Source of the DNA: Candidatus Jordarchaeia archaeon
GTDB lineage: Archaea; Asgardarchaeota; Jordiarchaeia; Jordiarchaeales; Jordiarchaeaceae
NCBI GenBank assembly: GCA_029856435.1
Contig: JAHQXB010000058.1
Location: 1 to 23,913 of the forward strand
Length of the DNA stretch: 23,913 nucleotides
Direction: 5' to 3'
Shown here: piece after piece, positions 167 through 3,051 of the stretch
Numbering within the stretch: the stretch's first letter is position 1
How the letters are laid out: the number at the start of each line of letters is the position of its first letter
Program-made: the position numbers and the translations under genes
Notes under the pieces: generated by a model
What the model saw: only the letters and a program-made list of their open reading frames with translations
Database searches by the model: none
Told to the model about the DNA's origin: nothing

Positions 167-621
167 TTTTTCTCTCCCTTATTTCCTTTTTTAAGCCATA
201 TCGGCAGAGAAAAGGGCGTAGCCTTAGAACTCGTAGCATCTTGAGTAGGAAAATATTAGAGAACCCTTTTTTCCTCTATAACTATTACTAGGTGTTTTTA
301 GCCCTTCTCAAATCCTATTAATTATTCTACCTCATATTTAAAACTTTAGCCTTCTGCAGGCGGCGTTATATTTCCATCAGTGAATTTTTGGTGTTTTGGG
401 TGAATATGTTTTTTTGAAGGTTTGTGGGGGGCTTTTTGTGGCTTCTTTCCCGAAAAATAAGTCTTTAGACGGGAGACTGGGCAGGTGGTTTCCGACGAAA
501 AAGGTAGCGCCACACGAGAATTTCACTAGGGGGGACATAGCGCCTCTGCAGACTGTTTAATGTTAAAGGGGGGATTGAAAAATAGAAGAGTAAATGATTT
601 GGTTAACTTTGGCTAAGTTTA

Positions 622-660
622 GGGAATAAAACGTCATTCTGTCTTTTCGATTTTATTCCC
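622..660 (-). ncRNA. Candidate SECIS element: 3'-UTR hairpin with tandem G.A/A.G pairs
   Basis: The mRNA strand reads GGGAAUAAAAU-CGAA-AAGACAGAA(loop region)-UGAC-GUUUUAUUCCC. It has a 10-bp perfect stem plus a U-G pair topped by CGAA/UGAC, and begins 15 nt after the stop of the UGA-containing gene. Confidence 0.45.
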
Positions 661-674
661 ACCAAATCTCCAAT

Positions 675-1133
675 TTAGGTTTTTAATTTTTTTATGACTT
701 CTAGTATTTCTTCAGTTTTTGGGATGTCGTGCATGGAGTCGCCGTAGTACGCGTATTGTATTGTTCCTTCCTTGTCTATTACTAGTAGTGCGGGCATTCT
801 CCCCAGTTTTCGCAGTATGATTTCTTGTTTTAGCAGTTTGGTGACTTTTTGTTCTTGGTCATAGTATATGGGGTATTTTCTTTTGGCGTATTTTGTTTCC
901 AGCTTTTTGGCGTTTTCCAGCTTGTCCGCAGTGATGGGGATTAGTACGGTGTTTAGTTGCTGGAACTCTTCGATGTGGTTTGCTAGTCTGGCGACGTGTG
1001 CCCTGCAGTATGGTCAGGAGATTCCTCTCAGTAGGATTAGGACAATGTTTCTTTTTCCTTCGAAGTCTCTGATGTTGGCTGTTTCTCCTCTTGAGTTAGG
1101 TAGGCTGAATTCTGGTATCCTTTTGCCCACCAT
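675..1133 (-). CDS. Peroxiredoxin-like (AhpC/TSA, PrxL) selenoprotein, 152 aa; in-frame TGA at 1014-1016 read as Sec40, UxxC motif
   Basis: Manual translation: MVGKRIPEFSLPNSRGETANIRDFEGKRNIVLILLRGIS-U-PYCRAHVARLANHIEEFQQLNTVLIPITADKLENAKK...GRMPALLVIDKEGTIQYAYYGDSMHDIPKTEEILEVIKKLKT*. AhpC/TSA motifs lie on both sides of the TGA, which occupies the first Cys of CxxC. An alternative in-frame ATG is at 1187. Confidence 0.88.
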
Positions 1134-1274
1134 TTGGAACTTGTCCTTCGTTCTGCTACCACCTCCTCCTAATTGAAAAACATGCATGTACTAAAGCGTT
1201 TTAGTTAAAATATTTCTCCTTTTATTGCATATAAATTTAAAAAAATTTGGGGTTGATTTTGGGTTACCTTTTAT

Positions 1275-2150
1275 TTATTTTTTGAGGCCGAGTATTTCTC
1301 GTGCTTCGTCTGGGGTTGCTACTGGTCTTTGTAGTTCTTTGGCTATTCTTACTACTTTTGCTACGAGTTCGGCGTTGCTTTTTGCAAGGACGCCTTTTTC
1401 AAGGTAGATGTTGTCCTCCATGCCTACTCTTACGTGTCCTCCTAGGAGTATGGCTCCTGCTGCCATTTCCATTTCGTATCTTCCTGGGGCGCAGACGGAC
1501 CAGGTCCAGTTTTTGGGGATTTGGTCTACGCAGTAGATTAGGGTTTTGAGGTCGGGTGACATGCATGAGAGCCCGCCGAACATTACGAATTGGATGTGTA
1601 GGGGTTCTTTTAGTGAGCCTTCGGCTACCAGTCTTTTGGCTGTGTTTATTTGTCCGGTGTCGTAGATTTCCAGTTCGGGTTTGACATTGTTTTCATACAT
1701 GTAGCCTGCCCACTTTACAATGGTGTTTACCGGGTTTCCGAAGATGACGTTTCTTAGGACGGGTAGTCCCATGTCTTCCCAGAGGTTGAGTGAGCCCATG
1801 TTGAGTGATGAGAGGTCCTGTTTGAAGGTCATTCTCTCCTTCATTATTTCGTCCATTTTTTCTGGGTCAACCCTGCCCCCGCCAGTTGTGATATTTATGA
1901 TTAGGTCTGAGGCTTCGCTCTCCCTTATTCTTTTAACATACTCTTTTAGAACTGGGTTGGGATCTTTTGCTGCCCCTCCTGTTTCCGCGTCTTTGGCGTG
2001 GAGATGAACCACCGAAGCGCCAGCCTTCCTGCACTTTACGCATTCCTCAATAACCTCATCGATAGTTGCGGGAACATATGGTGTTTGAGCTCTAGAAATG
2101 AATTCTCCGCCGGTGAGGGCGGCCGTTATTATGAGTTTCTCCCTAGCCAT
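1275..2150 (-). CDS. BKACE family (3-keto-5-aminohexanoate cleavage enzyme-like, DUF849) beta-keto acid cleavage enzyme
   Basis: Motifs IITAALTGG, VVHLHAKD (Zn-binding HxH), SSLNMGS, KPELEIYD and GGHVRVGMEDN. Start placed at ATG 2150 behind SD GGAGGTG; the track start is 2174. Confidence 0.92.
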   Translation of the reverse strand: MAREKLIITAALTGGEFISRAQTPYVPATIDEVIEECVKCRKAGASVVHLHAKDAETGGAAKDPNPVLKEYVKRIRESEASDLIINITTGGGRVDPEKMDEIMKERMTFKQDLSSLNMGSLNLWEDMGLPVLRNVIFGNPVNTIVKWAGYMYENNVKPELEIYDTGQINTAKRLVAEGSLKEPLHIQFVMFGGLSCMSPDLKTLIYCVDQIPKNWTWSVCAPGRYEMEMAAGAILLGGHVRVGMEDNIYLEKGVLAKSNAELVAKVVRIAKELQRPVATPDEAREILGLKK

Positions 2151-2241
2151 AATTCCACCTCCAAAACTAATCATTTATAATATTTTTAATGGTTTAACGC
2201 CCTTTACTTTAATTCCACGCTTCAAGAATTTAAAATTGTTT

Positions 2242-3051
2242 TCATTTTTTCGTTTTTGGGTGTGGTTCGTCTAGGAGTGCTATCACTTCTTTGTATTGTT
2301 TCAAATCTGCGGGTATGCTTAGCTGGATTTCTTCTAGGAAGTCGGCGTATTTCTGTGGGTCTAAAACATTGTATAGGAAGTTTTTTATTTTGCGGGCTGT
2401 TTCTATGCCTTTTTGGCCGCACTTTTCAACCAGTAGTAGGAAGGCGTCTGCGGAGGAGGCTGCTACCGCGTTTTGGAACTGTTTTCCCCTGTCTGGAATT
2501 TTGTTTCTTATTTTCCATATGGATTCAAATAGTTTTAGGGCTTCCTCCATTTTTATAATCATTTTTTCGCAGCTCAGGGTGGAGGCCAGGTCTATGAGTG
2601 CATTGCCCTTACCGTAGAGGGCTAGGGCGTAGTCTGGCGCTATTTTTAGAGCTTCATCATAACTGTTTATTGCTTCCTCGTATCTGCCTAAATTTCCCAA
2701 GGCTAAGCCCTTATTGTAGTGTGTGACGAAATTGTGGGGGTTTAGGGCTAGAACTTTGTCGAAAAAATTTAGAGCCTCCCCGTATTTTCCCATTTTTATG
2801 AGTAAGCCGCCCTTATTGTTTAAGGCTTCCTCATCATTGGGACTTATTTCTAGAACCTTATCGAAACACTTCATAGCCTCCTCATGTCTCCCCAACTGGT
2901 CCAACGCTGTGCCCTTATTGGCTAGAGCCACAATGTCTTGAGGGTTGATCTCCAGGGCCTTATTGTAGAAGTCTATGGCTTCCTCAAATTTACCCTCATC
3001 TACCAAGGAGTTGCCTTTGTTGACTAAGGCTTCTACAGATTCAGAATCCAT
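2242..3051 (-). CDS. TPR-repeat protein with unknown C-terminal helical domain
   Basis: About five 34-aa repeats of the type ALxNKGxxLxxLGRxEEAxxxxDKxLExxP; SD GGAGG upstream. Confidence 0.9.
   Translation of the reverse strand: MDSESVEALVNKGNSLVDEGKFEEAIDFYNKALEINPQDIVALANKGTALDQLGRHEEAMKCFDKVLEISPNDEEALNNKGGLLIKMGKYGEALNFFDKVLALNPHNFVTHYNKGLALGNLGRYEEAINSYDEALKIAPDYALALYGKGNALIDLASTLSCEKMIIKMEEALKLFESIWKIRNKIPDRGKQFQNAVAASSADAFLLLVEKCGQKGIETARKIKNFLYNVLDPQKYADFLEEIQLSIPADLKQYKEVIALLDEPHPKTKK

What the first reader, a model, noticed from the sequence alone, without database searches (positions are those of the whole stretch)
675..1133. Hidden selenoprotein: peroxiredoxin-like gene read through an in-frame UGA (U-P-Y-C)
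Seen: a continuous AhpC/TSA-like frame with a single TGA (1014-1016) exactly at the first Cys of the thioredoxin-fold CxxC (RGIS-U-PYC). Coding-like A/C wobble bias continues on both sides, there are no frameshifts, and the six-frame track missed the gene entirely. Known: Sec-containing peroxiredoxin-like proteins and Sec recoding have been described in Asgard archaea. Inference: this is a true selenoprotein and the host encodes Sec machinery. Standard pipelines would truncate it or call it a pseudogene.
Basis: partly seen in the sequence, partly recalled or inferred. Interest (0 to 1): 0.85.

Follow-up and report, generated by a model that had tools for sequence, protein, structure and literature searches.

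The report
Known Asgard peroxiredoxin-like selenoprotein gene
This is a real selenocysteine-containing peroxiredoxin-like gene of an Asgard archaeon (class Jordarchaeia/Freyarchaeia), but three papers already list this protein family as a selenoprotein in this lineage; the only unusual part is the folded RNA behind the gene, which does not look like the published signal for reading UGA as selenocysteine.

Summary
Observation confirmed and interpretation supported, but the gene is already known.

**The gene**
- On the minus strand, window 675-1133 (or from 1187) is one frame with a single TGA at 1014-1016, giving RGIS-U-PYC.
- It scores as AhpC/TSA and Redoxin.

**Evidence that the TGA is read as Sec**
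- The TGA sits at the same column in every close homologue I read at DNA level: about 30 genes in 27 Asgard genomes of four families, plus two metagenome contigs.
- dN/dS is 0.04-0.2 on both sides of the codon.
- One Helarchaeota ortholog has TGT (Cys) there.
- "W" in database homologues is TGA misread by gene callers.
- TGA is otherwise an ordinary stop in this genome.
- The genome encodes SepSecS, EFSec and a PSTK-like kinase in one cluster, plus a Sec-containing selD. tRNA-Sec is missing from this assembly but present in two same-genus genomes.

**Why it is not new**
- The same-genus protein is letter-identical to "Jordarchaeia_GCA_019056875_U" in Huang et al. 2024.
- Sun 2021 and Valentin-Alvarado 2024 also list it.

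**What may be new**
- A 73-nt three-helix RNA (596-668) follows the stop in all 30 TGA-bearing genes checked.
- It is strongly covarying and is absent behind the one Cys ortholog.
- It lacks the AUGA-stem-GA layout of published Asgard SECIS elements.
- The scan's first readers noted the same UPYC gene in two other genomes.

The parts
675..1133 (-). PrxL coding sequence from ATG 1133-1131 to TAA 677-675: 152 codons, Sec at codon 40. The protein has no Cys outside the U-P-Y-C box.
   Evidence: Translation; Pfam AhpC-TSA/Redoxin; alignment with orthologs; dN/dS 0.04-0.2 before and after the TGA; AlphaFold2 model with pLDDT 92.9 and a Prx/Trx fold.
1014..1016 (-). UGA codon read as selenocysteine (first position of the U-P-Y-C redox box). 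The Cys codon TGC of the box is at 1007-1005.
   Evidence: Same column is TGA in about 30 orthologs and paralogs and TGT in a Helarchaeota ortholog. In the model the residue lies at the N-terminus of helix 41-52.
1134..1187 (-). Possible N-terminal extension or 5' leader. It holds ATG 1187-1185, the Shine-Dalgarno-like GGAGGAGGTGGT at 1169-1158, and ACG 1151-1149 at the place where other lineages have the ATG/TTG start (M-KDKF...).
   Evidence: Upstream alignment of 12 orthologs. The KDKFQ codons vary mostly at third positions. In G004 no ATG/GTG/TTG lies between the upstream stop and the ACG. The start codon is not settled.
596..668 (-). Conserved 73-nt three-helix RNA in the 3' UTR, starting 6 nt after the stop. 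It is the candidate SECIS, of non-canonical layout.
   Evidence: Alignments A1, A2 and A5; covariance model R1. Of the cells, 93.7% are paired; 16 of 23 pairs show compensatory changes; 0 of 500 shuffles reach this. There are 31 hits in 27 of 151 Asgard genomes, and all 30 checked lie -5 to +8 nt after the stop of a TGA-bearing PrxL gene. No hit behind the Cys ortholog, the BCP homologues, selD or vhuD.
662..668 (-). P1 5' strand GAUUUGG. It pairs with CCAAAUC at 596-602.
   Evidence: 98.6% paired; sequence nearly invariant; two pairs with compensatory changes.
622..660 (-). P2 hairpin: an 11-bp stem GGGAAUAAAAU / GUUUUAUUCCC. Its apical loop begins GAAAA and ends AUGA.
   Evidence: All 11 pairs show compensatory changes somewhere in the 30 distinct sequences. 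By my count the 3' UGA of the loop is present in about 28 of 32 copies and the 5' GA in about 20 of 32.
605..619 (-). P3 side hairpin AACUU-AGCCA-AAGUU. The UUAGCCA segment is nearly invariant.
   Evidence: C-G to G-C swap at the middle pair (16 versus 12 sequences).

Best explanation
Window 675-1133 (-) encodes a roughly 152-residue selenoprotein. The reading frame may begin a few codons further upstream. The protein belongs to the Asgard 'Prx-like thiol:disulfide oxidoreductase' (PrxL) family, in the subfamily with the signature KDKF...LPNSRGE...R-x-I-x-U-P-Y-C.

Shown here:
- The UGA at 1014-1016 is under strict conservation, and the frame is under purifying selection on both sides of it.
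- The position is Cys in a natural ortholog.
- The genome carries the archaeal/eukaryal Sec pathway.

Inferred, decoding: Sec-tRNA(Sec), made by SerRS, PSTK and SepSecS with selenophosphate from SelD, is delivered by EFSec to this UGA. The delivery is directed by an RNA signal in the 3' UTR. The only conserved candidate for that signal is the 73-nt three-helix element at 596-668.

Inferred, enzyme chemistry: the protein has a peroxiredoxin/thioredoxin fold, with Sec40 at the N-terminus of the first active-site helix and Cys43 one turn later. The selenolate is the attacking nucleophile, and a Sec40-Cys43 selenenylsulfide is the oxidised state. It therefore most likely works as a thiol/selenol-disulfide oxidoreductase or a peroxide-reducing enzyme recycled by a thioredoxin-like reductant. 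The substrate is unknown, and the family has never been assayed (Mariotti 2016, PMC4989117).
For: - **Frame and family:**
- **TGA conservation:** the TGA is at the same column in 16 genes of 13 relatives. It is also there in every further gene found through the 3' element, 30 of 30, and in two metagenome contigs.
- **Selection:** synonymous sites are near saturation while dN/dS stays at 0.04-0.2, both before and after the TGA.
- **Cys ortholog:** P0020 has TGT at the position.
- **Normal stop usage:** TGA ends 304 of 1349 long open frames, so there is no genome-wide reassignment. The long SepSecS and EFSec frames contain no stops.
- **Sec machinery:** SepSecS C117:28492-29763, EFSec C117:27075 onward, PSTK-like C117:22889-23617, and selD on C35 with a Sec codon.
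- **Other Sec genes:** two VhuD genes each carry 2 TGA.
- **tRNA-Sec in the genus:** 9-bp acceptor stem, G discriminator, UCA anticodon.
- **Structure:** pLDDT 92.9; best match Sulfolobus Bcp1 (3drn), TM 0.89; Sec40 precedes helix 41-52.
- **Literature:** the G002 protein (same genus) is identical to 'Jordarchaeia_GCA_019056875_U' in the Prx-like selenoprotein file of Huang 2024. Prx selenoproteins are reported in Jordarchaeia/Freyarchaeia by Sun 2021 and Valentin-Alvarado 2024.
- **3' element:**
Against: - No tRNA-Sec gene was found in this assembly with Rfam, aragorn, blastn or a fuzzy pattern.
- The PSTK-like hit is below the NCBIfam cut-off (201 versus 290.5 bits).
- selD contains a 30-nt insert with an in-frame TAA. 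The insert is conserved in all six genomes of the genus, with a fixed stem and a free loop. Other agents of this scan read it as a tRNA-type intron.
- No canonical Asgard SECIS (R-UGA, 7-15-bp stem, 8-20-nt loop, GA) lies within 400 nt after the gene, and Rfam finds nothing in the window. The recoding signal is therefore assigned by association only.
- There is no expression, proteomic or selenium-labelling evidence, and the enzymatic activity is untested.
Confidence: 0.93

Rival explanations
1. The gene is a pseudogene, or the TGA is a sequencing or assembly error. A nonsense codon has inactivated an ordinary CxxC redoxin.
For: Table 11 splits the frame into 57-aa and 40-aa pieces. NCBI annotation of close relatives lists only C-terminal fragments of 84-103 aa (P0015, P0033, P0034).
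Against: The same TGA is present in about 30 independent genes from four families. dN/dS after the TGA is 0.04-0.2. The full-length fold is predicted with pLDDT 92.9. The Sec machinery and other Sec genes are present.
Confidence: 0.02
2. The UGA is decoded as something other than Sec, for example as Trp (as the 'W' in database homologues suggests) or as Cys by near-cognate read-through. Alternatively, translation simply stops there.
For: About 30 full-length database homologues print W at the position.
Against: The two W-proteins whose DNA could be read translate to their record only with TGA=W. One of them also runs through its real TGA stop into the 3' UTR ('...NK-W-FGR', which is UGAUUUGG). 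Another (P0014) matches a sequence published with Sec at that place. TGA is a normal stop in this genome. The position is the nucleophilic first Cys of a CxxC box, where a Trp would destroy the site. A natural ortholog has Cys there.
Confidence: 0.03
3. The gene is a selenoprotein, but the 73-nt three-helix RNA at 596-668 is not its SECIS. It would instead be, for example, a stability, termination or regulatory element specific to this gene family. In that case Sec insertion is directed by an unrecognised signal elsewhere.
For: - The element lacks the AUGA/GA pair flanking the main stem that defines published lokiSECIS and eSECIS-like models.
- The same genome uses canonical-looking elements behind vhuD and selD.
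- The 5' GA of the P2 loop is missing in about a third of copies.
- Model R1 finds no second copy behind any other Sec gene of this genome.
Against: - It is the only conserved sequence after the stop; conservation ends at its last base.
- It starts -5 to +8 nt from the stop in 30 of 30 TGA-bearing genes, across UxxC, UxxU and UxxA/S/T variants.
- It is absent behind the single Cys ortholog.
- Its A-rich loop start and G-A loop end resemble the apical loops of the canonical elements of this genome and the published lokiSECIS loop.
- No canonical element occurs within 400 nt in any of 30 loci (1 hit against 4.2 expected by chance).
Confidence: 0.25

Closest known systems
Asgard Prx-like (PrxL) selenoproteins: 'Prx-like thiol:disulfide oxidoreductase' of Huang, Xiao and Zhang 2024 (PMC11227280), including Jordarchaeia_GCA_019056875_U. 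Also the Prx selenoprotein of Sifarchaeia/Jordarchaeia (Sun 2021, PMC9723677) and of Freyarchaeia/Atabeyarchaeia (Valentin-Alvarado 2024, PMC11291895).
   Same: Same protein family and same subfamily. It has the same U-x-x-C box with Sec first and no other Cys. The same-genus ortholog (83% identical to the window's protein) is letter-identical to a published entry.
   Different: Nothing of substance at the protein level; this genome's copy is simply another member. The papers I could read do not show the RNA element behind this subfamily.
Lokiarchaeota PrxL.1 and PrxL.2 with their lokiSECIS (Mariotti et al. 2016, PMC4989117).
   Same: Prx-like fold, UxxC/UxxU redox box, no Cys elsewhere, and a Sec signal placed right after the stop codon.
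   Different: The three Loki GC14_75 PrxL proteins belong to the other subfamily (...FFRG-x-W-U-x-x-C/U...). Their lokiSECIS is AUGA, a 9-bp stem, an 11-nt loop and GA. The element here has no AUGA/GA around the stem, has a three-way junction instead, and has a 14-19-nt loop.
Asgard eSECIS-like type I/II elements (Huang 2024), as seen in this genome behind vhuD (C180, C99) and selD (C35).
   Same: Position directly after the stop. A closing outer helix plus a side hairpin, also present behind selD and vhuD_C180. An apical loop with an A-rich 5' half and G-A near its 3' end.
   Different: The GA quartet at the base of the main stem is missing. A GA...UGA pair sits at the top of the stem instead, with AUGA on the 3' arm. 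The P1 and P3 sequences are specific to this gene family.
BCP/PrxQ-type peroxiredoxins (Sulfolobus Bcp1, PDB 3drn; S. tokodaii Prx-like, PDB 2ywn).
   Same: Same fold (TM 0.89) and detectable sequence similarity (E 1e-7). The second residue of the box (Cys43) aligns with the peroxidatic Cys.
   Different: Peroxiredoxins have P-x-x-x-T/S-x-x-C. Here the Thr position is Sec and the Pro is absent, so this is a CxxC-type redox box, not a classical peroxidatic site.
Bacterial Prx-like thiol:disulfide oxidoreductase selenoproteins (UxxC; listed as 'predicted with high confidence' in the 2026 review PMC13188914).
   Same: PF00578 domain with a UxxC/UxxU motif.
   Different: Bacterial genes use a SelB-bound hairpin inside the coding sequence. 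Here the machinery is archaeal/eukaryal and the candidate signal is in the 3' UTR.

Membership tests
Asgard Prx-like (PrxL) selenoprotein family | AhpC/TSA-Redoxin (thioredoxin-like) fold | tested here: met
   Pfam PF00578 7.4e-22 and PF08534 7e-19. AF2 model pLDDT 92.9; TM 0.89 to Bcp1 3drn.
Asgard Prx-like (PrxL) selenoprotein family | CxxC-type redox box instead of the peroxiredoxin T/SxxC, with Sec (UGA) at the first position | tested here: met
   RGIS-U-PYC. U aligns with the Thr and C with the peroxidatic Cys of BCP homologues.
Asgard Prx-like (PrxL) selenoprotein family | No Cys outside the redox box (Mariotti 2016) | tested here: met
   The 152- or 170-residue translation has Cys only at position 43 of the box.
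Asgard Prx-like (PrxL) selenoprotein family | Sec/Cys pairing: UGA conserved in orthologs and aligned with Cys in other homologues | tested here: met
   TGA in about 30 genes. TGT in Helarchaeota ortholog P0020. Identity of a same-genus ortholog to a published entry.
Asgard Prx-like (PrxL) selenoprotein family | Host has the archaeal/eukaryal Sec pathway (tRNA-Sec, PSTK, SepSecS, EFSec, SelD) | tested here: inconclusive
   SepSecS, EFSec and Sec-containing selD score over cut-off; the PSTK-like hit is below cut-off but lies in the same cluster. tRNA-Sec was not found in this assembly, which holds only 2-7 detectable tRNAs. It is present in same-genus G005 and G003.
lokiSECIS / Asgard eSECIS-like type I element | (A/G)UGA immediately 5' of a 7-15-bp stem, an 8-20-nt apical loop starting with adenines, and GA (or AA) immediately 3' of the stem | tested here: not met
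   No such element within 400 nt after the stop in any of 30 orthologous loci (1 hit against 4.2 expected). The same script finds the vhuD_C180 and selD elements. In the conserved element, P2 is flanked by U and UAA, and AUGA lies in the loop on the 3' side.
lokiSECIS / Asgard eSECIS-like type I element | Conserved stem-loop placed right after the stop codon of a Sec gene, with an A-rich 5' half of the apical loop | tested here: met
   Distance of -5 to +8 nt in 30 of 30 loci. Loop consensus (G)AAAA...UGA.
Methanococcales-type archaeal SECIS | GAA_A internal bulge below a short G-C-rich upper stem | tested here: not met
   The P2 stem is continuous and A-U rich, with no G-C upper stem. No Rfam match at E<=1 in the window.
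Classical peroxiredoxin (BCP/PrxQ) | P-x-x-x-T/S-x-x-C peroxidatic motif | tested here: not met
   The Thr column is Sec and the Pro column is Arg in the alignment with BCP homologues L035 and L037.

The most novel reading that the evidence does not exclude
The KDKF/UPYC subfamily of Asgard PrxL selenoprotein genes is served by a SECIS architecture that the papers I could read do not describe. It is a three-way junction: P1 is GAUUUGG/CCAAAUC, P2 is a 10-11-bp hairpin, and P3 is a hairpin with an invariant UUAGCCA loop.

The element has no AUGA/GA quartet at the base of the main stem. In about two thirds of copies a GA...AUGA pair caps the stem at the apical end instead. The linear order AUGA, then about 11 nt of helix strand, then unpaired AA is that of a eukaryotic SECIS. 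That would make the element read like a circular permutation of a type II SECIS, or else a signal recognised through other determinants (P1 and the P3 loop).

If functional, it would show that one Asgard cell reads at least two structurally different Sec signals.
Probability: 0.35. Interest if true: 0.6.

Novelty: already known. Interest (0 to 1): 0.3.

Why it matters
For the gene itself the value is in annotation. Standard pipelines cut this protein to an 84-103-residue fragment, or print Trp at the active site because they switch to a TGA=Trp code. Users of the databases will therefore misread a catalytic selenocysteine.

Biologically it adds one more copy to a published family, so it changes nothing about what is known of Sec use in Asgard archaea.

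The RNA behind the gene could matter more. Asgard SECIS elements are used to argue how the eukaryotic SECIS arose. A conserved, covarying element that serves a Sec gene without the AUGA/GA core at the expected place would bear on which features the still-unknown archaeal SECIS-binding factor really reads.

Tried and rejected
1. **Rfam on the window.** A scan of the whole window at E<=1 gave no match, SECIS families included.
2. **tRNA-Sec in the own genome.** Rfam RF01852, aragorn in several modes, Rfam on the Sec-gene cluster, blastn with the same-genus tRNA-Sec and a fuzzy anticodon-arm pattern all failed to find it. I treat this as uninformative, because the assembly holds almost no detectable tRNAs.
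3. **Crude genome-wide hairpin scans.** Scans for GAAAA...RUGA loops and for lokiSECIS-like patterns were too noisy to use, although one hit turned out to be the selD SECIS.
4. **RNAalifold on the first MAFFT alignment.** It recovered only P2, because of one-base misregister in the 3' part. I replaced it with a hand-given structure and a covariance model.
5. **Search for a second copy of the element.** Model R1 found none in the own genome. Only 150 of about 6,200 first-look candidates were scored, so this is 'not found', not 'absent'.
6. **Universal tandem G.A (kink-turn-like) cap on P2.** Rejected as universal, because the 5' GA is missing in about 12 of 32 copies.
7. **Supplements of Mariotti 2016.** They are not held as text. 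Table S4 of Huang 2024, the SECIS assignments per gene, is not among the held files. I could therefore not see what those authors assigned to this gene.
8. **Type II (mini-stem) eSECIS patterns.** I did not scan for these downstream of the gene. I rely on the lack of any conservation beyond base 596.
9. **Complex prediction** was not used, because no protein-protein claim is made.

Full report
**1. The observation**

The feature is on the minus strand. Bases 1014-1016 of the + strand read TCA, which is TGA on the coding strand. Reading 675-1187 (-) with TGA as U gives an uninterrupted 170-residue product. Its only recoded codon lies in ...LLRGIS-U-PYCRAH....

A table-11 ORF list shows only a 57-aa head (1014-1187) and a 40-aa tail (675-797). 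Neither would appear at the default 60-aa threshold. Pfam places AhpC-TSA (7.4e-22) and Redoxin (7e-19) across the TGA.

**2. Is the TGA real and read through?**

A six-frame search of 60 relatives found 16 close homologues in 13 genomes. They belong to four families and are 54-92% identical. Each has TGA at the same column. Two of them have a second TGA three codons on (UxxU), and one has UPYA.

Following the RNA element described in section 6 through 151 genomes of the phylum raised this to about 30 genes. All carry TGA at that column, in UPYC, UPFC, UPYA/S/T or UxxU boxes.

Among eight orthologs, synonymous sites are near saturation (pS up to 0.9). dN/dS stays at 0.04-0.2 both before and after the TGA, so the part after the 'stop' is translated.

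TGA closes 304 of 1349 long open frames of this genome. Reading it through lengthens long frames by only 13%. The code is therefore not reassigned.

**3. The 'Trp' trap**

The large protein database returns about 30 full-length homologues with W at the Sec column. These W residues are TGA:
- The two whose DNA could be read translate to their record only 'with_TGA=W'.
- With TGA=U they give ...GIS-U-PYC... and ...GLN-U-PYC....
- One also runs through its real TGA stop into '...NK-U-FGR', which is the UGAUUUGG of the 3' element.
- P0014 matches a Sifarchaeia entry that Huang et al. print with Sec.

Only one homologue, P0020 from a Helarchaeota MAG, translates by table 11, and it has TGT there. 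That is the classical Sec/Cys pair. Close relatives in NCBI are annotated as 84-103-residue C-terminal fragments (P0015, P0033, P0034).

**4. Sec machinery**

The genome is 3.54 Mb in 181 contigs and 97.8% complete. Contig C117 holds SepSecS (515 bits), EFSec (308 bits) and the best PSTK-like hit within 7 kb of each other. The PSTK-like hit scores 201 bits, under the 290.5 cut-off. A selD with its own Sec codon lies on C35. Two vhuD genes carry two TGA each.

selD also has a 30-nt insert with an in-frame TAA. The insert is present at the same place in all six genomes of the genus, with a fixed 9-bp stem and a freely varying loop. Other agents of this scan have read it as a tRNA-type mRNA intron. 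I did not test splicing.

tRNA-Sec was not found here. However, aragorn sees 2 tRNAs and Infernal 7 in the whole assembly, most with inserts, so absence means little. Same-genus G005 and G003 hold a gene with the following features:
- a 9-bp acceptor stem, GGCGGACUG/CAGUCCGCC
- a G discriminator and an encoded CCA
- a UCA anticodon and a long variable arm
- inserts in the D and T loops

This fits the intron-bearing tRNA-Sec described for Lokiarchaeota.

**5. What the protein is**

The AlphaFold2 model (pLDDT 92.9) is a peroxiredoxin/thioredoxin fold. Its best match is Sulfolobus Bcp1 (TM 0.89, 24% identity). Sec40 sits just before helix 41-52.

In the alignment with BCP-type homologues the Sec falls on the Thr of the peroxiredoxin T-x-x-C motif, and Cys43 falls on the peroxidatic Cys. 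The motif's Pro is missing. There is no other Cys. This is exactly the published definition of 'Prx-like' (PrxL) proteins.

I infer a selenolate nucleophile and a Sec40-Cys43 selenenylsulfide. The substrate is unknown.

**6. The RNA behind the gene**

Six bases after the TAA begins a 73-nt element (668 down to 596):
- P1: GAUUUGG/CCAAAUC.
- P2: an 11-bp hairpin whose loop starts GAAAA and ends AUGA.
- An unpaired UAA.
- P3: AACUU-AGCCA-AAGUU.

On 30 distinct copies, 93.7% of cells pair and 16 of 23 pairs show compensatory changes. No shuffle or slid register comes close.

A covariance model finds 31 copies in 27 of 151 Asgard genomes, in four families. All 30 that I checked start -5 to +8 nt from the stop of a TGA-bearing PrxL gene. 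The model finds nothing behind the Cys ortholog, the BCP homologues, selD or vhuD. Sequence conservation ends at the element's last base.

This makes the element the only candidate SECIS, but it does not fit the published models. The lokiSECIS is AUGA, a 9-bp stem, an 11-nt loop and GA. The eSECIS-like pattern is NNGAN-stem-loop-stem-N(G/A)ANN. A scan for (A/G)UGA-stem-loop-stem-GA found 1 hit in 30 loci against 4.2 expected. The same script finds the elements behind vhuD (C180) and selD of this genome, and the one behind vhuD (C99) is canonical by eye.

The GA...UGA pair at the top of P2 could form tandem sheared G.A pairs. However, the 5' GA is absent from about 12 of 32 copies, while P1 and the P3 loop UUAGCCA are nearly invariant.

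The three PrxL genes of the original Loki genome belong to the other subfamily (FFRG-x-W-U...). The lokiSECIS description of 2016 therefore does not cover this subfamily. I could not see the per-gene SECIS table of Huang 2024.

**7. Comparison with the literature and verdict**

- The same-genus protein (G002) is letter-identical to 'Jordarchaeia_GCA_019056875_U' in the Prx-like selenoprotein set of Huang et al. 2024, which places the window's genome in that class.
- G047 equals a Sifarchaeia entry.
- Sun et al. 2021 list a peroxiredoxin among the three selenoproteins of Sifarchaeia and Jordarchaeia.
- Valentin-Alvarado et al. 2024 list a Prx-like selenoprotein in Freyarchaeia.
- A 2026 review lists the family with UxxC/UxxU.

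The gene is therefore a correct call of a known selenoprotein in a lineage where it is already published. Its value is for annotation.

The part worth a further look is the non-canonical 3' element. First readers of this scan noted the same UPYC gene in two other genomes.

Noticed in passing
G000:C35:14799-14828 (own genome, minus strand; inside selD, locus L005): selD carries an exact 30-nt in-frame insert with a TAA, between ...NDVY and AIGG.... It forms a 9-bp hairpin. All six genomes of the genus have it, with the stem fixed and the 5-nt loop free to vary. Other agents of this scan already report it as a tRNA-type mRNA intron, including on this genome.
   Followed up: partly
window 1149-1169 (-): Where other lineages start this gene with ATG or TTG (M-KDKF...), the six genomes of this genus and G031 have ACG. 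It lies 6 nt after a strong GGAGGAGGTGGT, and the following KDKFQ codons vary mostly at third positions. In G004 there is no ATG/GTG/TTG between the upstream stop and the ACG. This could be ACG initiation, or the start may simply have moved to ATG 1133.
   Followed up: partly
whole genome G000; G005:C1:about 810400-810560 (-), locus L050: Standard tRNA finders see almost no tRNAs in this 3.5-Mb genome: aragorn finds 2 and Infernal 7, mostly 92-107 nt long. The same-genus tRNA-Sec carries two inserts, in the D loop and the T loop, and scores only 27 bits against Rfam tRNA-Sec. Intron-rich tRNAs defeat default detection here.
   Followed up: partly
database proteins P0002-P0032; loci L066:248-841 and L067:553-1029: Public gene calls on short metagenome contigs translate these genes with a TGA=Trp code. 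They print W at the catalytic Sec, and in some cases read through the real TGA stop into the 3' UTR ('WFGR...').
   Followed up: yes
G047:C4:673175-674407, G017:C26:5844-7596, G062:C16:24886-25624 (loci L073, L070, L071): Sifarchaeia-type and Lokiarchaeia-type genomes carry two PrxL genes of this subfamily in tandem, each with its own copy of the 3' element. One partner is UxxU (two Sec) or UPYA/S/T (no resolving Cys).
   Followed up: partly
window 1275-2174 (-) and 2242-3051 (-): The genes directly upstream on the same strand are a beta-keto acid cleavage enzyme (BKACE, 5.2e-88) and a TPR-repeat protein. I see no obvious functional link to the selenoprotein. An A/T-rich stretch (tttaaatttatat, about 1220-1232) lies between BKACE and the PrxL gene; I did not test whether it is a promoter.
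   Followed up: no
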